Shown here one piece after another: positions 28,225 through 52,611 of a DNA stretch of 64,000 nucleotides. Numbering within the stretch: the stretch's first letter is position 1; every line of letters begins with the position of its first letter. The stretch covers positions 87,331 to 151,330 of the forward strand of contig DASTSO010000024.1 of the NCBI GenBank assembly GCA_035760645.1, given 5' to 3'. Below the pieces are notes generated by a model. It searched no databases. It saw nothing but the letters and a program-made list of their open reading frames with translations, and was not told the origin of the DNA. This DNA is from Gemmatimonadales bacterium (lineage in GTDB: Bacteria > Gemmatimonadota > Gemmatimonadetes > Gemmatimonadales > GWC2-71-9). The position numbers were made by a program, and so were the translations under genes.

Positions 28225-29118
28225 CTACCGGTGTTGGTCGGAAAAGGCGATCGCCTGCTCGGTGCGACGGAAGATCTTCCGCACGATCCCCCAGCCGTAG
28301 TAGCGCACCGCGAGCGCGAGGCCGAGGACGACGCCGACGCCGTTGGTGTAGACGCGCCAGAGGAGGAGGATCAGGTGCTCGTCGCCGCCGAGATTGCCGG
28401 CGGCGCCGCCCAGGAAGCCGAGGTCCACGGCGCCGGCGCCCGACGGCGTCGGCAGGACGAGCTGGCTGTAGAGGAGCGCGAAGGAGCCGAACCAGAGCGG
28501 GCCCATCGGCGGCGGGTCGGGCAGCGTCATCGCGAGCACCGGCAGGATGGCCACGCGCGTGACCAGATCGATGAGCGACATCGGCACGCTGGCCACGAGC
28601 GGCCAGGCGGGCATGCGGCGCCAGTAGACGCGGGCGCGCTTGACCGGCCGCTGGATCTGGCGCACCGCGGGATGCGTGAGCCGGCGCGCGAGGAGCCAGG
28701 CGAGGAGGCTCACCACCGCGACCACGACGAGCCAGGGCCAGGCCCGCGCGGCGGCCCGCACGAGGCTGGGGCCCGCCATCGCCCACCAGTCGCCGGAGTA
28801 GCGCCAGGCGAGCCAGCCCGCGCCGACGATCACGACCGGCCACGAGGCGAGGACCTCGAAGCTGATCGCGACGAACGCCGCGGGCGCGGGGACGCCGCAG
28901 CGCAGGATGCCGGCGAGCCGGGCCGGCTCGCCGCCCAGGCGCATCGGCGTGACCGCGCAGGCGCCCTCGCCGAAGGCGTTCAGCACGACACCGTCCCAGG
29001 TGCTGATCCGGTGGCCGAGCCCCTGCAGGATCCACTTGATGCGCCAGGCGCGCGCCAGGAAGTCGAGCGCCAGGAGGGCGATGCAGAGGAGCTGGGCCTC
29101 GACGAATCCGAGATGCAC
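28225..29118 (-). CDS. flippase-like / lysylphosphatidylglycerol-synthase-TM-type (UPF0104) integral membrane protein
   Basis: 297-aa ORF, about 8 hydrophobic segments, GGEPARL motif region; starts 6 nt after the GT4 stop. Confidence 0.6.
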   Translation of the reverse strand: MHLGFVEAQLLCIALLALDFLARAWRIKWILQGLGHRISTWDGVVLNAFGEGACAVTPMRLGGEPARLAGILRCGVPAPAAFVAISFEVLASWPVVIVGAGWLAWRYSGDWWAMAGPSLVRAAARAWPWLVVVAVVSLLAWLLARRLTHPAVRQIQRPVKRARVYWRRMPAWPLVASVPMSLIDLVTRVAILPVLAMTLPDPPPMGPLWFGSFALLYSQLVLPTPSGAGAVDLGFLGGAAGNLGGDEHLILLLWRVYTNGVGVVLGLALAVRYYGWGIVRKIFRRTEQAIAFSDQHR

Positions 29119-29124
29119 GGCCGC

Positions 29125-30402
29125 TCAGCCCTGTCCCGCCACGCGGCGATAGGCGTCGAAGATCCGCTCGAGGGCGAGCGGCCACGCATGGTGCCGCTCG
29201 GCGTGGGCGCGCGCGCGCAGGCCCAGGGCCGCGAGATCGCGCCCGAGGAGCGCGACCGCCGTCTCGGCGAGCGCGGCGGCGTCGCCATCGGGGTAGAGGT
29301 CGCCGGCCCCGCTCTGGCGCACCTGCTCGGGCACGCCGCCCCGGTCCACCGAGAGCACGGGGAGCCCGCTCGCCATCGCCTCGAGCGCGGCGAGGCCGAA
29401 GGTCTCGTTGGGTCCGGCGGCCACGTAGAGATCGGCGGCGGCGAGCAGATCGGCGAGCGCCGCCCGGTCGGTGGCGAACGGGAGCCAGTGCACCTGGCTG
29501 GCGCCGGGCTGCGCCTGGAACCAGCGCCGCGACGGTCCGTCCCCGATCAGCGCGAGCTGTGCGCCGGTGCGGCGCGCCACCGCGGGCCAGGCACGCAGCA
29601 GCACCTCGAGCCGCTTCTCGCGCGCGAAGCGGCCCGCGAAGACGGCGAGCGGCGCGTCCGGGTCGAGCCCGTGCCGCGCGCGCGTCGCGGCGCGGGCCGC
29701 CGCGCGTGTGGGATGGAAGAGGTCCACGTCCACGCCGAGCGGCACGCGCAGCGCGTTGTCCACGCCGTGGCGCGCGAGCTCTTCCGCGACGAAGTCGGAA
29801 GCGACGAGCACGGCGCGGAAGAGCCGGCTCACCCGCCGCACGTAGGCCCACGCCGCGGCGTGCGCCGCGCGGCGCCCGCCGCTCCGCTCGGGCTGCGGCG
29901 CGACCAGGTGCGGCACATTGCCGTGGTAGAACCACACCATCGGCACGCCGAGGCCGCGGTTCACGTGATGCGTGGTCCAGGGCACGAGGAACGGGCTCCC
30001 GACCTCGATGAGGTCGGGACGCTCGTGCTCGAGGATCCGTCGCATCGTGCGGGGCGCCCAGAGAAAGCGGTAGGGATGCTGCGTCGGGATGCGCGCGCCG
30101 CGCAGGCGGTAGCAGCGCACGCCGTCGCCGTCGATCAGTCCGTCACGCTCGCCGGGGATCGCGATCGTCTGCCGGAGCTCGGGGTGCGCCGCGACGTACG
30201 CGGCCTTCTGCAGCAGGTAGGTGCGCACGCCGCCCGTGGTGGGGCCGAAGTACTTCGTGACGTCGAGCAGCCCGAAGCGCGCCTCCGGGCGCTGGCGCGG
30301 CGGGAACGGCGTCGGCCACGGACGGCCGCCGGCGTCGATCGCCGCGGCGAGCGTCTCCCGGTCGAGGGCGTCGCGGTCGGGCACCGAGCCGGCTGTCGTC
30401 AA
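29125..30402 (-). CDS. GT4-family (GT-B, retaining) glycosyltransferase
   Basis: E-x7-E region ETFGLAALEAMASGLPV and N-terminal GPTTGGV. No ATG or GTG upstream; TTG at 30400-30402 overlaps the stop of the micro-ORF (TTGA). Start is uncertain. Confidence 0.75.
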   Translation of the reverse strand: MTTAGSVPDRDALDRETLAAAIDAGGRPWPTPFPPRQRPEARFGLLDVTKYFGPTTGGVRTYLLQKAAYVAAHPELRQTIAIPGERDGLIDGDGVRCYRLRGARIPTQHPYRFLWAPRTMRRILEHERPDLIEVGSPFLVPWTTHHVNRGLGVPMVWFYHGNVPHLVAPQPERSGGRRAAHAAAWAYVRRVSRLFRAVLVASDFVAEELARHGVDNALRVPLGVDVDLFHPTRAAARAATRARHGLDPDAPLAVFAGRFAREKRLEVLLRAWPAVARRTGAQLALIGDGPSRRWFQAQPGASQVHWLPFATDRAALADLLAAADLYVAAGPNETFGLAALEAMASGLPVLSVDRGGVPEQVRQSGAGDLYPDGDAAALAETAVALLGRDLAALGLRARAHAERHHAWPLALERIFDAYRRVAGQG

Positions 30403-30626
30403 TCGGAGCAGTCGCCGAGCGGGTAGACGGTCCCGCAGTTCCGGCATGGATTCTTGCACCCCATCGCGCGCGAGGTGACGGGGTGGCCGCAGCGCTGGCA
30501 CGTGGGCGGAACGGCGGGACGGCGGGACGGCGGGAGGTCCGCTCCGGTGCGTGGAGCTACTCCCTGCGAGGAGGCCACCTCCCGGCGTCCCGCCTCTCCC
30601 GCCGTCCCGCCCTCAGCCGAGCCCAT
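30399..30626 (-). CDS. candidate Cys-rich micro-protein (up to 75 aa; conserved-looking part CQRCGHPVTSRAMGCKNPCRNCGTVYPLGDCSD)
   Basis: In-frame part of ORF 30399..30932. The last 34 codons are about 90 percent G/C at position 3. The N-terminal half coincides with repeat copy A, and GC3 is lower there. An internal ATG would give a 21-aa MGCKNPCRNCGTVYPLGDCSD. Confidence 0.4.
   Translation of the reverse strand: MGSAEGGTAGEAGRREVASSQGVAPRTGADLPPSRRPAVPPTCQRCGHPVTSRAMGCKNPCRNCGTVYPLGDCSD
30504..30612. repeat. GGCGGGAC-type inverted-repeat element, copy A
   Basis: Plus-strand arm GGGCGGAACGGCGGGACGGCGGGACGGCGGGAGG (30504-30537) and complementary arm CCTCCCGGCGTCCCGCCTCTCCCGCCGTCCCGCCC (30578-30612). 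On the minus strand it starts right after the MBL stop: TGAGGGCGGGACGGC. Confidence 0.75.
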
Positions 30627-31269
30627 ACGCCCCGGTGAGGAACGGATTCGTCGTGCGCTCGGTGCCGATCGTGGTGTCGGGGCCGTGGCCGCTGTGGACG
30701 ATGGTGGCGTCGGGGAGCGAGAGGAGCTGCTCGCGGATCGAGCGCAGCAGCGTCGCCGGGTCGCCGCCGGGGAGGTCGGTCCGGCCGACCGAGCCGGCGA
30801 AGAGGACGTCGCCGGCGAAGACGCGGCCGTGGCCGACGAACGCCACGCTGCCGGGCGAGTGGCCCGGCGCGTGCCGCACCTCGAACTCGTACGCGCCGAC
30901 GCGCACCCGCTGCCCGTGCGCGAGCTCGCCATCGGGCGCGGGCGGCACGGCGAGCGGCCGCCCGACCCACGCGCCGAACTGCGGCAGCGCGTCGTAGATC
31001 GGCCGGTCGGCCGGGTGCAGATGCACCGGCACGCCGGTCGCGTCCTTCACGGCTTGGACGCCGAGCACGTGGTCGACGTGGGCGTGGGTGAGCCAGACCG
31101 CGGTCAGCGTCCAGCCGCGGCGCGCGAGCTCGGCGAGGAAGCGCTCGGCCTCCTCGCCCGGGTCGACCATGACCGCCTCGCGTGTGGCGGGATCGGCGAC
31201 GAGGTAGCAGTTCTGGACGAACTGCCCGTTCGGAATCCGGACGACGACCGGGCCCTGCTCAGCCGACAC
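30613..31269 (-). CDS. MBL-fold hydrolase (hydroxyacylglutathione hydrolase / glyoxalase II-like)
   Basis: 218-aa ORF, THAHVDH motif, HAPGHSPG; start overlaps the trxB stop by 11 nt. Confidence 0.8.
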   Translation of the reverse strand: MSAEQGPVVVRIPNGQFVQNCYLVADPATREAVMVDPGEEAERFLAELARRGWTLTAVWLTHAHVDHVLGVQAVKDATGVPVHLHPADRPIYDALPQFGAWVGRPLAVPPAPDGELAHGQRVRVGAYEFEVRHAPGHSPGSVAFVGHGRVFAGDVLFAGSVGRTDLPGGDPATLLRSIREQLLSLPDATIVHSGHGPDTTIGTERTTNPFLTGAYGLG

Positions 31270-32221
31270 CAGCCCCCGTCCTCCGGTCCGCGAGGTCGCT
31301 GAGATACTTCTCGACCGCGATCGCGGCGGTCGTCGCGTCGCCCACGGCGGTCGTGACCTGGCGGGTGAGCTGCACGCGGAGGTCGCCCGCGGCGAAGAGG
31401 CCGGGGATCGACGTCATCATCCGCTCGTCGGTGACGATGTACCCCGCCGCATCGTGCGCGAAGTGGCCGTTGACGAGATAGCTGTTCGGCTGGAAGCCGA
31501 TGAAGATGAAGCAGCCGGTGGCCGCGAGCGTCGAGTTGTCGCCGGTGACGGTGTCCTGCATGTGCACCGTGTGCAGCCCGCTCGGGCCGCCGTCGAGCGC
31601 GGTGGCGACCTTGTTCCAGATCACCTCGATCTTCGGATTGGCGAAGAGCCGCTCCTGGAGGATCTTCGAGGCCCGCAGCTCGTCGCGGCGGTGGATGAGG
31701 TAGACCTTCGCCGCGTAGCGCGTGAGGTAGTCGGCCTCCTCGACCGCGGCGTCGCCGCCGCCGACCACGGCGATCACCTCGTTGCGGAAGAAGGCGCCGT
31801 CGCAGACCGCGCAGTAGGACACGCCCCGCCCCGCGTACTCGAGCTCGCCGGGGATGCCGAGCTTGTTCGGGGTGCCGCCGGCGGTGAGGATCACGGCGGG
31901 CGCCTCGTAGAGGTTGCCGAGCGAGGTGACGACCTCGAAGAGACCGTCGGGGCGGCGGGTGATCGACTCGACGTTCTCCTGGCGGATCTCGGCGCCGAAC
32001 TCCCGGGCATGCTCCGTCATCCGCTCGGCGAGCTCGCGGCCCTTGATCTTGCCGAAGCCCGGGTAGTCCTCGATCCACTCGGTGTTGAGCAGCTCGCCGC
32101 CCGGCATCCCCCGCTCGAGCAGCACCGCGCGCAGCATGCCGCGCCCCGCGTACATGGCCGCGCACAGCCCGGCCGGCCCGCCGCCGACGATGATCACCTG
32201 GTACTCGAACCGCTCGCTCAT
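31259..32221 (-). CDS. trxB: thioredoxin-disulfide reductase
   Basis: 320-aa ORF, IIVGGGPAG, redox-active CAVCDG, GGGDAAVEEA NADPH site. Confidence 0.92.
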   Translation of the reverse strand: MSERFEYQVIIVGGGPAGLCAAMYAGRGMLRAVLLERGMPGGELLNTEWIEDYPGFGKIKGRELAERMTEHAREFGAEIRQENVESITRRPDGLFEVVTSLGNLYEAPAVILTAGGTPNKLGIPGELEYAGRGVSYCAVCDGAFFRNEVIAVVGGGDAAVEEADYLTRYAAKVYLIHRRDELRASKILQERLFANPKIEVIWNKVATALDGGPSGLHTVHMQDTVTGDNSTLAATGCFIFIGFQPNSYLVNGHFAHDAAGYIVTDERMMTSIPGLFAAGDLRVQLTRQVTTAVGDATTAAIAVEKYLSDLADRRTGAGVG

Positions 32222-37486: not shown

Positions 37487-37529
37487 GGGCGGGACGGCGG
37501 GAAGGGCGGATGGCTCCGGCCGTCCCGCC
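37487..37529. repeat. GGCGGGAC-type inverted-repeat element, minimal copy B (intercistronic E1beta/E2)
   Basis: GGCGGGACGGC (37488-37498) pairs with GCCGTCCCGCC (37519-37529) around a 20-nt loop. The minus strand reads TAGGCGGGACGGC starting in the E1beta stop codon. Confidence 0.7.
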
Positions 37530-39687: not shown

Positions 39688-39799
39688 GGCGGGACGGCGG
39701 GAAGGCGGGACGGCGGGAGCGCCCGACGGCAAACGGGCCCCCGGTGTCGTCACCGGAGGCCCGTTGGGAGAGCGGTTTCCCGCCGTTCCGCCCTCCCGC

Positions 39800-39800
<1 letters not shown>
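39688..39800. repeat. GGCGGGAC-type inverted-repeat element, full copy C
   Basis: Arm GGCGGGACGGCGGGAAGGCGGGACGGCGGGAGC (39688-39720). Inner hairpin GGGCCCCCGGTG-TCGT-CACCGGAGGCCC (39735-39762). Complementary arm CCCGCCGTTCCGCCCTCCCGCC (39779-39800). The minus strand reads TAGGCGGGAGGGCGG starting in the hppA stop. Confidence 0.8.
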
Positions 39801-51632: not shown

Positions 51633-52526
51633 ATGCGCGAGCTGTTCATCGGGGTGGACGTCGGCGGCACCAAGACGGTAGCCGCCGTGGGCGACGCGAC
51701 GGCGGAGCTGGGCCGCGCCGACGGCCCGGGCGCGGCGGTGCGGCCGGGCCGTGCGCTCGTCTCGGCGGGGACGATCACCGAGGTGGCGCGCCGCGCGCTC
51801 GCCGCGGCCGGCGCGATGCACGCGGCGGCAATGGTGGTGGGCGCCGCGGGCGCGGGCCGCGAGCCCGAGCGCACCGACCTGCGCGAGGCGCTCCGCGCCG
51901 AGGGGCTCGCCGAGCGCCTGGTCGTCACGACCGACATCGAGATCGCCCTCGCGGCGGCGTTCGGGCCCGGGCCGGGGATCGTGGTGAGCGCGGGCACCGG
52001 GAGCATCGCGGTGGGCCGTGATAGCCGGGGCGCGCTCCACCGCATCGGCGGCTACGGCTGGCAGATGGGCGACGAGGGGAGCGGCTACGCGATCGGCCGC
52101 GCGGCGCTCGGTGCGGTGGGCCGCGCCGCCGACGGCCGGAGCGCGCCGACGGCGCTCCAGGAGCGCGTCCTCGCCGCCACCCGCAGCGCGGACCTCGACG
52201 CCCTGGTGCGCTGGGCCGCGAGCGCGGGGCCGGCGGAGGTGGCGAGCCTCGCGCCGCACGTCCTCGCCGTCGCGGCCGAGGGCGACATCGTGGCGCGCGG
52301 GATCGCCGACTACGCCGCGCGCGAGCTCTCGCAGCTCGCCAAGCAGCTCCTCCCCGCCCTCGACGCCGACCGCCCCGTTCCCGTCGCCGTCACCGGCGGC
52401 CTCCTCGCCCCCGCCCGGCTCCTCTACGGCACCGTCCTCGAGAAGCTGCGTGAAGACTCCGACCTCGCCGTCCGCGATCAGCCGATCGACGCGGCGGCGG
52501 GGGCGCTGGCAATGGCGAGGAGCTAG
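51633..52526 (+). CDS. BadF/BadG/BcrA/BcrD-type ATPase (N-acetylglucosamine / MurNAc kinase family)
   Basis: 297-aa ORF; IGVDVGGTKT, GTGSIA, GWQMGDEGSG. Confidence 0.75.
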   Translation: MRELFIGVDVGGTKTVAAVGDATAELGRADGPGAAVRPGRALVSAGTITEVARRALAAAGAMHAAAMVVGAAGAGREPERTDLREALRAEGLAERLVVTTDIEIALAAAFGPGPGIVVSAGTGSIAVGRDSRGALHRIGGYGWQMGDEGSGYAIGRAALGAVGRAADGRSAPTALQERVLAATRSADLDALVRWAASAGPAEVASLAPHVLAVAAEGDIVARGIADYAARELSQLAKQLLPALDADRPVPVAVTGGLLAPARLLYGTVLEKLREDSDLAVRDQPIDAAAGALAMARS

Positions 52527-52610
52527 GCGGAGCGGCGGGAGCGAAAGGACACGGGCCTCCGGTGACGTCACCGGAGGCCCGTGCGTTTGCTGAGCTTCCT
52601 GCCGTCCCGG

Positions 52611-52611
<1 letters not shown>
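52526..52611. repeat. GGCGGGAC-type inverted-repeat element, full copy D; fills the convergent intergenic gap
   Basis: Arm GGCGGAGCGGCGGGAGC (52526-52542). Perfect 28-nt palindrome GGGCCTCCGGTGAC|GTCACCGGAGGCCC (52553-52580). Arm CCTGCCGTCCCGGC (52598-52611). Each outer arm begins with the G of a TAG stop codon on its own strand. Confidence 0.8.

What the first reader, a model, noticed from the sequence alone, without database searches (positions are those of the whole stretch)
30399..30626. Unannotated Cys-rich micro-ORF coupled to the GT4 start and overlapping a repeat element
The frame ending at 30399 encodes ...PPTCQRCGHPVTSRAMGCKNPCRNCGTVYPLGDCSD, with the pattern CxxC-x10-CxxxCxxC-x9-C. 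About 31 of the last 34 codons end in G/C, as expected for real coding sequence here. Its TGA overlaps the only usable GT4 start (TTGA). The possible ATG at 30626 overlaps the MBL gene by 14 nt. However, the first 40 or so codons coincide with inverted-repeat copy A and have weaker GC3, so the true product may be only the 21-aa MGCKNPCRNCGTVYPLGDCSD. Candidate roles: a zinc-ribbon or metal-binding peptide, a coupling leader for GT4 translation, or a modified peptide.
Basis: seen in the sequence. Interest (0 to 1): 0.55.

Follow-up and report, generated by a model that had tools for sequence, protein, structure and literature searches.

The report
Detached cysteine-rich domain of neighbouring hydrolase
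The unannotated small reading frame is a real, strongly conserved gene: it encodes as a separate mini-protein the six-cysteine, zinc-ribbon-like tail that related bacteria carry fused to the end of the neighbouring metallo-beta-lactamase-fold hydrolase, and it is not a helper for the glycosyltransferase gene downstream.

Summary
The ORF is there as described: minus strand, stop at 30401-30399, core CQRCGHPVTSRAMGCKNPCRNCGTVYPLGDCSD. It is a real coding sequence. The 33-aa core is 73-85% identical in 11 related Gemmatimonadota loci. pN/pS is 0.21 in this frame and 1.7-1.9 in the other two. At least 120 database clusters of 37-79 aa share it, and all end in GDCSD.

The key result is that the same module is the C-terminal domain of 58 of the 121 best-matching MBL-fold hydrolases. 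One of these, P0314, sits in the same syntenic locus. The window therefore holds a split gene: MBL (30613-31269) plus its detached Cys6 domain.

The ORF stays next to the MBL where GT4 is absent (L078, L089) or displaced (L077), so it is not a GT4 leader. The internal Met is not conserved and the 21-aa form would lack the first CxxC, so that product is rejected. The best-supported start is ATG 30626, which overlaps the MBL stop.

The variable N-terminal part contains a dispersed REP-like hairpin (30504-30612). TTG 30402 is not the only possible GT4 start; the NCBI record uses GTG 30384.

No Pfam or NCBIfam model covers the module. Zinc binding and action as an MBL subunit are inferred.

The parts
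30399..30626 (-). Small ORF of 75 aa (ATG 30626 to TGA 30401-30399). This is the best-supported extent. The alternative start is GTG 30578 (59 aa). ATG 30464 (21 aa) is rejected.
   Evidence: A start codon in frame with the core overlaps the MBL stop by 4-14 nt in 12 of 12 loci, about 10 of them independent.
30402..30500 (-). Conserved 33-codon Cys6 core (C43-D75): C-x2-C-x10-C-x3-C-x2-C-x8-C, ending YPLGDCSD-COOH.
   Evidence: 73-85% identity in 11 loci. G56, C57, P60, C61, P69, G71, D72, C73, S74 and D75 are invariant in 121 sequences. pN/pS is 0.21 against 1.7-1.9 in the other frames. 67% identical to residues 217-249 of the fused MBL P0314.
30504..30612 (.). REP-like palindromic element made of tandem GGCGGGAC units with a central hairpin. 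It lies inside the variable N-terminal coding part, immediately after the MBL stop.
   Evidence: The RNA fold over 30490-30630 is -101.9 kcal/mol (z -6.6); over 30498-30626 it is -91.8 kcal/mol (z -6.4). No Rfam family and no U-tract terminator.
30613..31269 (-). MBL-fold hydrolase of 218 aa, of the YcbL/TTHA1623/BLEG-1 type (HEU4698196.1). It is the partner whose C-terminal domain the small ORF represents.
   Evidence: Pfam Lactamase_B 2.8e-31. PDB matches 7ev5, 2zwr and 2xf4 at E 4e-48 to 4e-38. 63% identical to residues 4-208 of the fused P0314.
31259..32221 (-). Thioredoxin-disulfide reductase (TrxB). It overlaps the MBL start by 11 nt and lies upstream of the MBL in every locus examined.
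   Evidence: TIGR01292 scores 358.8 bits against a cut-off of 343.45. Contexts.
29125..30384 (-). GT4 glycosyltransferase, with the annotated start GTG 30384. The alternative TTG 30402 overlaps the small ORF's stop. It is a lineage-specific downstream neighbour, not a constant partner.
   Evidence: GT4 is absent in L078 and L089 and displaced in L077.
28225..29118 (-). LPG_synthase_TM-family membrane protein. It travels with GT4.
   Evidence: Contexts.

Best explanation
The window carries a split gene. In sister Gemmatimonadota lineages, one polypeptide of about 245-250 aa consists of a YcbL/TTHA1623-type MBL-fold hydrolase followed, after a 3-12-residue linker, by a roughly 35-residue six-cysteine module ending ...YP(L/H)GDCSD. 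In the window's lineage the hydrolase ends at 30613, and the module is encoded by its own small ORF (30626-30399). The ORF's start codon overlaps the hydrolase stop.

Inferred mechanism: ribosomes finishing the MBL gene re-initiate at ATG 30626 (translational coupling). They read through a poorly constrained 42-residue N-terminal tail, which in this genome includes an in-frame REP-like hairpin. They then make the 33-residue core. The core folds as a zinc ribbon around one metal ion held by the two CxxCG knuckles (C43/C46 and C61/C64). The invariant C57, C73 and the C-terminal GDCSD form a second metal-binding, redox or contact surface. The mini-protein binds the MBL hydrolase non-covalently and restores the two-domain enzyme.

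What is shown: coding status, homology to the fused domain, orthologous position, linkage to the MBL rather than GT4, and the conserved overlapping start.

What is inferred: metal binding, physical association with the MBL, which start is used, and the biochemical role of the module.
For: 1. Conservation and selection. tblastn finds the core in all three closest GT4-orthologous loci at 74-83% identity, although GT4 itself is only 54-59% identical. At least 120 clusters of 37-79 aa share it, all ending in GDCSD. pN/pS is 0.21 in this frame against 1.87 and 1.67 in the others. Synonymous codon variants occur at almost all invariant residues.
2. Fusion. 58 of the 121 best hits to the fusion protein P0186 are MBL proteins, mostly 240-278 aa, that carry the module C-terminally. 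They include NCBI-annotated Gemmatimonadota and Gemmatimonadales proteins.
3. Colinearity. P0314 matches the window's MBL (residues 4-208, 63% identity) and the small ORF (residues 217-249, 67%, E 9e-16) in order. It sits in the same SDR-SDR-TrxR-MBL-...-fumarase-ThiF-SmpB synteny (compared).
4. Phylogeny. Split MBLs form one clade, sister to the fused subtype that has the same GCKNPCxNCGxxYPLGDCSD motif.
5. Linkage. The ORF follows the MBL in 11 of 11 related split loci (L001-L003, L075-L082). It stays intact where GT4 is missing (L078) or displaced by a histidine-kinase gene (L077). In L077, the copy left beside GT4 has lost 4 of 6 cysteines.
6. Start. A start codon in frame with the core overlaps the MBL stop by 4-14 nt in 12 of 12 loci. 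In L075 and L002 it is the only start available.
7. Zinc-ribbon character. The best PDB profile hit is the HVO_2753-like small zinc finger protein (E 0.0017), which aligns both knuckles. Weak Pfam hits go only to zinc-ribbon families. The non-significant Foldseek hits are mostly zinc-ribbon modules.
Against: - There is no expression, metal or interaction data.
- AlphaFold models the module with only moderate confidence: pLDDT 63-79 alone, and 63-77 with the last 5 residues below 50 in the fused protein. Neither the fold nor docking onto the MBL is established.
- No curated zinc-ribbon model reaches its threshold.
- A hairpin of about -92 kcal/mol lies between ATG 30626 and the core. The other three copies of that repeat in the window are intergenic. 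The N-terminal region therefore behaves like non-coding DNA, and the hairpin could impede or prevent translation in this genome.
- The direction of the event (fission or repeated fusion) rests on a midpoint-rooted NJ tree only.
- More distant stand-alone relatives are not next to an MBL (L085-L088), so the module can also work in other contexts.
Confidence: 0.8

Rival explanations
1. The module is chiefly a redox or electron-transfer element, not a structural zinc ribbon. It could be a zinc-thiolate redox switch or a rubredoxin-like Fe(Cys)4 or Fe-S centre. It would be serviced by the thioredoxin reductase encoded immediately upstream and would control or feed the MBL-fold enzyme. This concerns the biochemical role and is compatible with the split-domain origin.
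For: There are six conserved cysteines, including two CxxC motifs. A true trxB overlaps the MBL start and sits upstream of the MBL in split and fused lineages alike. The second fused subtype adds conserved histidines around the cysteines (GCKGGHCPNCGHPYPHGDCSD). Weak hits include rubredoxin-type domains such as Zn_ribbon_LapB and the rubrerythrin-like domain.
Against: trxB is a housekeeping gene, and the whole block is syntenic across the order, so adjacency alone is weak evidence. The MBL has the hydrolase-type HxHxDH motif (THAHVDH). Its nearest structures are the hydrolases YcbL, TTHA1623, BLEG-1 and GloB. There is no hit to the rubredoxin family itself.
Confidence: 0.15
2. In this particular genome the ORF is a silent relic. 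The REP-like hairpin inserted after the MBL stop blocks translation, or acts as a terminator or processing site, and the core has not yet decayed.
For: The hairpin is very stable. The same repeat elsewhere in the window is strictly intergenic, directly after stop codons. No canonical start lies between the hairpin and the first Cys. N-terminal GC3 is lower, 32 of 42.
Against: All 10 invariant residues and 12 of 14 near-invariant residues are intact in the window. By contrast, the truly redundant copy in L077 has lost 4 of 6 cysteines. Other lineages (L076, L080) have equally strong hairpins of different sequence at the same place and also keep the frame and the core. There is no U-tract terminator.
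Confidence: 0.07
3. The ORF is an upstream or leader ORF whose translation serves mainly to deliver ribosomes to the GT4 start (TTGA overlap).
For: The ORF's stop abuts or overlaps candidate GT4 starts in the window (TTG 30402, and GTG 30384 15 nt downstream). In several loci the called GT4 start overlaps the ORF by 17 nt.
Against: The peptide sequence, not merely the ORF, is under strong purifying selection. The ORF persists without GT4 (L078) and apart from GT4 (L077), and the module exists inside MBL proteins in loci without GT4 (L083, L089). The frame relation between the ORF and GT4 differs among loci. Incidental coupling within a tightly packed operon remains possible.
Confidence: 0.04
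4. The ORF encodes a precursor of a ribosomally made, post-translationally modified peptide, or only the 21-aa peptide MGCKNPCRNCGTVYPLGDCSD is made.
For: It is small and Cys-rich with an internal ATG at 30464. MBL-fold proteins occur in some peptide-maturation clusters (general knowledge).
Against: The N-terminal 'leader' is hypervariable (4-46 residues) and the C-terminal 'core' nearly invariant, which is the opposite of RiPP precursors. The neighbours are TrxB, SDRs, GT4, an LPG-synthase-like protein and fumarase, with no maturase. The internal Met is W in most relatives, and the conserved first CxxC lies upstream of it. The module is a covalent domain of an enzyme in 58 clusters.
Confidence: 0.03

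Closest known systems
C-terminal Cys6 domain of Gemmatimonadota 'MBL fold metallo-hydrolase' proteins (e.g. P0314 from GCA_036493755.1, P0213, P0222, P0228, P0255). It is annotated only as part of the MBL protein, with no domain model.
   Same: The motif is the same, CxRCG-x9/10-GCKNPCxNCGxxYPLGDCSD at the extreme C-terminus, with 67% identity over 33 residues. The syntenic position after TrxB is the same, and the MBL subgroup is the same at 63% identity.
   Different: There it is covalently fused through a 3-12-residue linker. In the window it is a separate ORF with its own start, a 42-residue variable tail and a REP-like hairpin in the former linker position.
Stand-alone 37-79-aa 'hypothetical proteins' of Gemmatimonadota (P0001-P0120, e.g. 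P0019, P0077, P0079 and P0106 in NCBI). JGI labels some 'predicted RNA-binding Zn-ribbon protein (DUF1610 family)'.
   Same: They are direct orthologues, with the same core, the same GDCSD end and the same position downstream of the MBL.
   Different: Only the N-terminal tail and the repeat insertion differ. The window's copy is not annotated in its own genome record. The DUF1610 label is an automatic assignment that Pfam thresholds do not support.
HVO_2753-like small zinc finger proteins (Pfam PF07754; PDB 9fhl_C) and generic zinc ribbons (PF13240, PF13248)
   Same: They share two CxxCG / CPxCG knuckles about 14 residues apart in a protein of about 50-65 aa, with profile-to-sequence E 0.0017.
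   Different: All scores are below the gathering thresholds. Those families lack the extra invariant C57, C73 and YPLGDCSD terminus, and they have no MBL association.
YcbL (2xf4), TTHA1623 (2zwr), BLEG-1 (7ev5) and S. aureus GloB (7l0b), the single-domain glyoxalase-II-like MBL hydrolases
   Same: The partner enzyme belongs to this subgroup. Sequence E-values are 4e-48 to 2e-30, and the fused model gives Foldseek TM up to 0.95.
   Different: None of the solved members has the Cys6 module. Alignments stop at about 205-210 columns, and the module has no structural counterpart.
Flavorubredoxin NorV with NorW, and persulfide dioxygenase-rhodanese fusions (5ve3). These are MBL-fold enzymes with an appended small Cys domain and a flavoprotein reductase neighbour (analogy from general knowledge).
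   Same: The architectural logic is the same: an MBL-fold catalytic domain, a small Cys-containing accessory domain that can be fused or separate, and a pyridine-nucleotide-disulfide oxidoreductase gene adjacent.
   Different: There is no flavodoxin domain. The metal motif is the hydrolase type, not the diiron type. The module is neither rubredoxin nor rhodanese. This is an analogy only and was not tested.

Membership tests
Unnamed 'GDCSD' Cys6 module (stand-alone small proteins plus the C-terminal domain of Gemmatimonadota MBL hydrolases) | Motif C-x2-C-x(9-10)-G-C-x3-C-x2-C-x8-C with a C-terminal YPxGDCSD | tested here: met
   All invariant columns of the 121-sequence alignment are present in the window. 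Cysteines lie at residues 43, 46, 57, 61, 64 and 73.
Unnamed 'GDCSD' Cys6 module (stand-alone small proteins plus the C-terminal domain of Gemmatimonadota MBL hydrolases) | Significant sequence similarity to other members, fused ones included | tested here: met
   phmmer E down to 4.7e-17 in a database of 5.8e9 sequences. BLASTP against the P0314 C-terminus gives E 9e-16.
Unnamed 'GDCSD' Cys6 module (stand-alone small proteins plus the C-terminal domain of Gemmatimonadota MBL hydrolases) | Encoded immediately downstream of, or fused to, a YcbL/TTHA1623-type MBL gene | tested here: met
   Window; 11 of 11 related split loci; fused forms.
Unnamed 'GDCSD' Cys6 module (stand-alone small proteins plus the C-terminal domain of Gemmatimonadota MBL hydrolases) | Purifying selection on the protein sequence | tested here: met
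   pN/pS 0.21 (median pairwise dN/dS 0.12) against 1.7-1.9 in the alternative frames.
Zinc-ribbon domains (Pfam Zn_Ribbon_1 PF13240, Zn_ribbon_3 PF13248, HVO_2753_ZBP PF07754) | Two Cys knuckles (CxxC ... CxxC), each followed by Gly, on a short beta-hairpin scaffold | tested here: met
   The knuckles CQRCG and CRNCG are in the sequence. The hairpin scaffold is not confidently modelled: only four isolated one-residue bridges and pLDDT 63-79.
Zinc-ribbon domains (Pfam Zn_Ribbon_1 PF13240, Zn_ribbon_3 PF13248, HVO_2753_ZBP PF07754) | Score at or above the family's gathering threshold | tested here: not met
   The best scores are 15-19 bits against cut-offs of 25-27. At most 13 of 121 members match any one family at E<0.01.
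Zinc-ribbon domains (Pfam Zn_Ribbon_1 PF13240, Zn_ribbon_3 PF13248, HVO_2753_ZBP PF07754) | Binds one Zn(II) through four Cys | not testable with these tools
   This needs metal analysis of purified protein.
Rubredoxin | Match to the rubredoxin family model; CxxCG ... CPxCG about 30 residues apart; Fe(Cys)4 | tested here: not met
   No rubredoxin hit in Pfam or NCBIfam. The knuckles are 14 residues apart. Iron binding cannot be tested here.
RiPP precursor peptide | Conserved leader, variable core, and an adjacent maturase or modification enzyme | tested here: not met
   The N-terminus is hypervariable and the C-terminal core invariant. The neighbours are TrxB, SDR, GT4, an LPG-synthase-like protein and fumarase.
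Leader or upstream ORF for translational coupling to GT4 | Presence and position depend on the downstream gene, and the peptide sequence is unconstrained | tested here: not met
   The ORF is present without GT4 (L078; module in L089) or apart from it (L077). The peptide is strongly constrained.

The most novel reading that the evidence does not exclude
The GDCSD six-cysteine module is a so far undescribed cofactor or redox domain. It might be a two-metal or zinc-thiolate switch, or a small iron-sulfur or rubredoxin-like centre. It would give YcbL-type MBL hydrolases a thioredoxin-reductase-linked regulatory or catalytic function, and it could act either in cis (fused) or in trans as a 4-8 kDa subunit. 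The lineage-specific REP hairpins inside its coding region would tune how much of the subunit is made relative to the enzyme.
Probability: 0.12. Interest if true: 0.7.

Novelty: new variant of a known kind. Interest (0 to 1): 0.45.

Why it matters
The finding adds a missed gene to this genome. It also shows that a widespread small-protein family is the same entity as an unmodelled C-terminal domain of an MBL hydrolase clade. That family has at least 120 clusters at 90% identity in Gemmatimonadota, with more distant relatives elsewhere.

The fusion/fission pair assigns a physical partner to an otherwise orphan mini-protein, so its function becomes directly testable by co-expression, metal analysis, and enzyme assays with and without the module.

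It is also a clear example of two annotation traps in high-GC genomes. First, a small domain-sized ORF is lost between two annotated genes. Second, REP-like palindromes sit in frame inside a tolerated, unconstrained coding linker.

The YcbL/TTHA1623/BLEG-1 subgroup has no settled physiological substrate. An accessory Cys domain linked to trxB may give a clue.

Tried and rejected
- Pfam and NCBIfam scans of the peptide and of all 121 family members gave only sub-threshold zinc-ribbon hits and no family assignment.
- AlphaFold2 of the 75-aa protein gave pLDDT 63. Foldseek of that model against the PDB found nothing at E<=0.001; the weak hits are mostly zinc ribbons.
- AlphaFold2 of the fused protein P0265 modelled the MBL domain above pLDDT 90 but the module only at 63-77. 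Foldseek aligned only the MBL part. No docking geometry could be obtained.
- Programmed frameshift or readthrough joining the MBL to the module was considered and rejected. The frame offset between the MBL and the ORF is +1 in some loci and -1 in others (coordinates). Each locus has its own overlapping start.
- Database 'fusions' P0136, P0156 and P0196 were set aside. They look like out-of-frame gene calls or frameshifted contigs, not real fusions.
- Rfam search and sigma-70/terminator scans of 30200-30800 found nothing.
- Contexts of distant relatives were mostly on contigs too short to be informative.
- Two literature searches found no description of an MBL or glyoxalase-II protein with such a Cys module.
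Full report
**The observation**

On the minus strand, a frame ending in TGA at 30401-30399 encodes MGSAEGGTAGEAGRREVASSQGVAPRTGADLPPSRRPAVPPTCQRCGHPVTSRAMGCKNPCRNCGTVYPLGDCSD when read from ATG 30626.
- The cysteines are at residues 43, 46, 57, 61, 64 and 73.
- 31 of the last 34 codons end in G/C, and 30 of the 33 core codons do. The N-terminal 42 codons are weaker, at 32 of 42.
- Over 30401-30520, the third position of the MBL/GT4 frame drops to 0.68 GC, while the third position of the Cys frame is 0.88.
- ATG 30626 overlaps the MBL gene (30613-31269) by 14 nt.
It is not the only possible GT4 start: GTG 30501, GTG 30459, ATG 30447 and GTG 30384 are all in frame.
- The exact-sequence look-up shows that the public record of this genome (a Gemmatimonadales MAG) annotates GT4 as the 419-aa protein starting at GTG 30384 (HEU4698195.1). 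It annotates the MBL as HEU4698196.1. None of the three possible versions of the small ORF is in the collection. The ORF is therefore truly unannotated there.

**Is it a gene?**

Searching genomes with the GT4 protein returned three orthologous Gemmatimonadales loci with GT4 at 54-59% identity. In all three, tblastn finds the Cys-rich peptide directly upstream of GT4 at 74-83% identity (E 1e-17 to 3e-21). That is better conserved than GT4 itself.

A protein search returned 120 clusters of 37-79 aa, almost all from Gemmatimonadota metagenomes or MAGs. Some are annotated 'hypothetical protein'. In the alignment, G56, C57, P60, C61, P69, G71, D72, C73, S74 and D75 are invariant. C43, R45, C46, F48, V50, K58, N59, N63, C64, G65, T66, V67, Y68 and L70 are at least 90% conserved. 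Every sequence ends in GDCSD. The part before the first Cys varies from 4 to 46 residues and is rich in A, P, G and R.

I compared ten distinct core DNA sequences from the window and related loci. pN/pS is 0.21 (median pairwise dN/dS 0.12) in this frame, against 1.87 and 1.67 in the other two frames. Synonymous codon variants occur at nearly every invariant residue. This is coding sequence under purifying selection.

The internal Met of the proposed 21-aa product is Trp in most relatives, and the conserved first CxxC lies upstream of it. The 21-aa product is rejected.

**What it belongs to**

Gene contexts of eight homologues share a conserved block: SDR, SDR, AF_1314_C-like protein, thioredoxin reductase, MBL hydrolase, small ORF. 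The window has the same block. Its reductase passes the TIGR01292 cut-off.

GT4 plus an LPG_synthase_TM protein usually follow, but not always:
- In L078 there is no GT4, and the small ORF is intact.
- In L077 a histidine-kinase gene on the other strand separates the ORF from GT4. A second, decayed copy of the ORF (NGSAGWEVLERRMGVEDKCKCANCGMEYPLGVRSD*, 4 of 6 cysteines lost) lies just before the displaced GT4.

The copy next to the MBL is the one that selection keeps.

A profile search of 1.8 billion representative proteins then turned up two MBL proteins with the module fused in frame to their C-terminus, P0133 and P0186. Using P0186 as query, 58 of the 121 best hits are MBL proteins, mostly 240-278 aa, that carry the module 3-12 residues after the NPF(L/V) motif that ends the MBL fold. 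There are two subtypes:
- ...GCKNPCPNCG(F/H)VYPLGDCSD, which matches the window's ORF;
- ...GCKGGHCPNCGHPYPHGDCSD(x).

Several of these proteins are NCBI-annotated 'MBL fold metallo-hydrolase' from Gemmatimonadota.

P0314 (249 aa, Gemmatimonadales GCA_036493755.1) aligns with the window's MBL over residues 4-208 (63% identity). It aligns with the small ORF over residues 217-249 (67% identity, E 9e-16). It lies in the same synteny (SDR-SDR-TrxR-MBL::Cys-...-fumarase-ThiF-SmpB) without any GT4.

In a neighbour-joining tree of the MBL domains, the split MBLs form one clade. That clade is sister to the fused subtype with the same motif. Stand-alone versions of the second subtype also exist (P0150, P0151, P0160, P0161, P0173, P0184). 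Separation and fusion have therefore happened more than once.

The micro-ORF is the detached C-terminal domain of the neighbouring hydrolase.

**The start codon and the repeat**

In 12 of 12 loci (about 10 independent), a start codon in frame with the core overlaps the MBL stop by 4-14 nt. In L075 and L002 it is the only start available. In several loci a stop codon in that frame lies just upstream, so the frame is not simply open by chance. About a third of the family's called N-termini begin MS or MN, which is consistent with such overlaps.

I therefore favour ATG 30626 (75 aa) with a probability of about 0.6. GTG 30578 (59 aa) gets about 0.3.

Between the MBL stop and the first Cys codon lies a 109-nt palindrome (30504-30612). 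Its arms are built from tandem GGCGGGAC units.
- As RNA, the fold over 30490-30630 is -101.9 kcal/mol (z -6.6). Over 30498-30626 it is -91.8 kcal/mol (z -6.4).
- The same unit forms similar hairpins at 37488-37529, 39688-39800 and 52526-52611. Each lies immediately after the stop codon of a minus-strand gene. It is a dispersed REP-like element.
- Other genomes carry equally strong hairpins at the same spot, made of different units: GGCGGTCA in L076 (z -10.3) and GCGTTCC in L080 (z -6.0). L003, L075, L002 and L079 have none.

The former inter-domain linker has thus become a landing site for such elements, and the reading frame has been kept each time. No Rfam family, sigma-70 promoter or U-tract terminator matches the region.

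**What the module is likely to do**

Sequence-only evidence points to a zinc ribbon.
- The two CxxCG knuckles align with those of the HVO_2753-like small zinc finger protein (PDB 9fhl_C, E 0.0017).
- The only Pfam hits are sub-threshold zinc-ribbon families.
- The non-significant Foldseek hits of the weak model are mostly zinc-ribbon modules.

No curated family threshold is met, and AlphaFold confidence for the module is moderate. C57, C73 and the strictly invariant C-terminal YPLGDCSD have no counterpart in known zinc ribbons.

The partner MBL belongs to the YcbL/TTHA1623/BLEG-1/S. aureus GloB subgroup. None of the solved structures in that subgroup has such a tail.

My best inference is as follows. 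The small protein is made by translational coupling to the MBL. It binds one zinc through C43/C46/C61/C64 and associates with the hydrolase, rebuilding the two-domain enzyme.

A redox-switch or electron-carrier role linked to the adjacent trxB is a live alternative for the biochemical function. Nothing in the data supports a RiPP precursor or a dedicated GT4 leader.

**Verdict**

It is wrong on the partner gene and on the 21-aa product.

The feature is a new, unmodelled variant of a known kind: a zinc-ribbon-like accessory domain, here split from its enzyme. Interest is moderate.

Noticed in passing
window 37488-37529, 39688-39800, 52526-52611 (and 30504-30612): A dispersed REP-like palindromic element. 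Its arms are tandem GGCGGGAC octamers around a GC-rich central hairpin. Each copy sits immediately 3' of the stop codon of a minus-strand gene. The unit gives 14 matches against 2.55 expected by chance. It is not in Rfam.
   Followed up: partly
L076 5950-6069; L080 3491-3640: Other Gemmatimonadota genomes have analogous, very stable hairpins at the same MBL/small-ORF junction, built from different repeat units (GGCGGTCA, z -10.3; GCGTTCC, z -6.0). They are always kept in frame with the small ORF. This suggests genome-specific REP families that repeatedly target this junction.
   Followed up: partly
L077 8604-8711: A second, decayed copy of the small ORF (4 of 6 cysteines lost) lies just upstream of a GT4 gene. 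A histidine-kinase gene on the opposite strand has separated that GT4 from the MBL locus. This is a relic of a local duplication or rearrangement.
   Followed up: partly
window 28225-30384 (GT4 plus LPG_synthase_TM): The GT4/LPG_synthase_TM pair is absent from the otherwise syntenic loci L078 and L089, so it appears to be a lineage-specific insertion. GT4's best NCBIfam hit is N-acetylglucosaminyl phosphatidylglycerol synthase (272.8 bits, below the 480 cut-off). This hints at a glycolipid-modifying pair.
   Followed up: no
window 30384-30501 compared with L001, L003, L075, L076, L080, L082: The GT4 reading frame relative to the small ORF differs between the window and L002 on one side and most other loci on the other. 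L079 differs again: its GT4 is in the same frame as the small ORF and starts 7 nt after the ORF's stop. In most loci a GTG inside the GGTGAC (Gly-Asp) codons of the small ORF is the called GT4 start, giving a 17-nt overlap; the window has GGCGAC instead. The first 30 or so residues of GT4 are therefore not conserved, and its true start is uncertain.
   Followed up: partly
window 30399-31046 (minus strand, Cys frame): The Cys frame stays open for 216 codons, right through the MBL gene in an alternative frame. In public databases this has produced chimeric gene calls that run from out-of-frame MBL sequence into the module (P0136, P0156, P0196).
   Followed up: partly
P0162-P0188 group; L085 4609-4827: More distant stand-alone relatives carry acidic N-termini and a short extension after the motif (...GDCSDLAEN / LVEN). 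In L085-L088 they are encoded downstream of a penicillin-binding/SpoIID protein, not an MBL. P0195 and P0197 carry the module behind unrelated N-terminal regions. The module is therefore not restricted to the MBL partnership.
   Followed up: partly
window 31259-31269: The trxB stop and the MBL start overlap by 11 nt, and the MBL stop overlaps the small-ORF start by 14 nt. trxB, the MBL and the small ORF therefore overlap in series on one strand, and GT4 either overlaps the small ORF's stop (TTG 30402) or starts 15 nt after it (GTG 30384). This suggests a single tightly packed operon.
   Followed up: no
P0121 (2247 aa): The top hit of the profile search is a highly repetitive protein whose repeat contains VCQRCSFPVSGRH. 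It matches only profile positions 19-36, in 34 stretches. I set it aside as a spurious repeat match.
   Followed up: no
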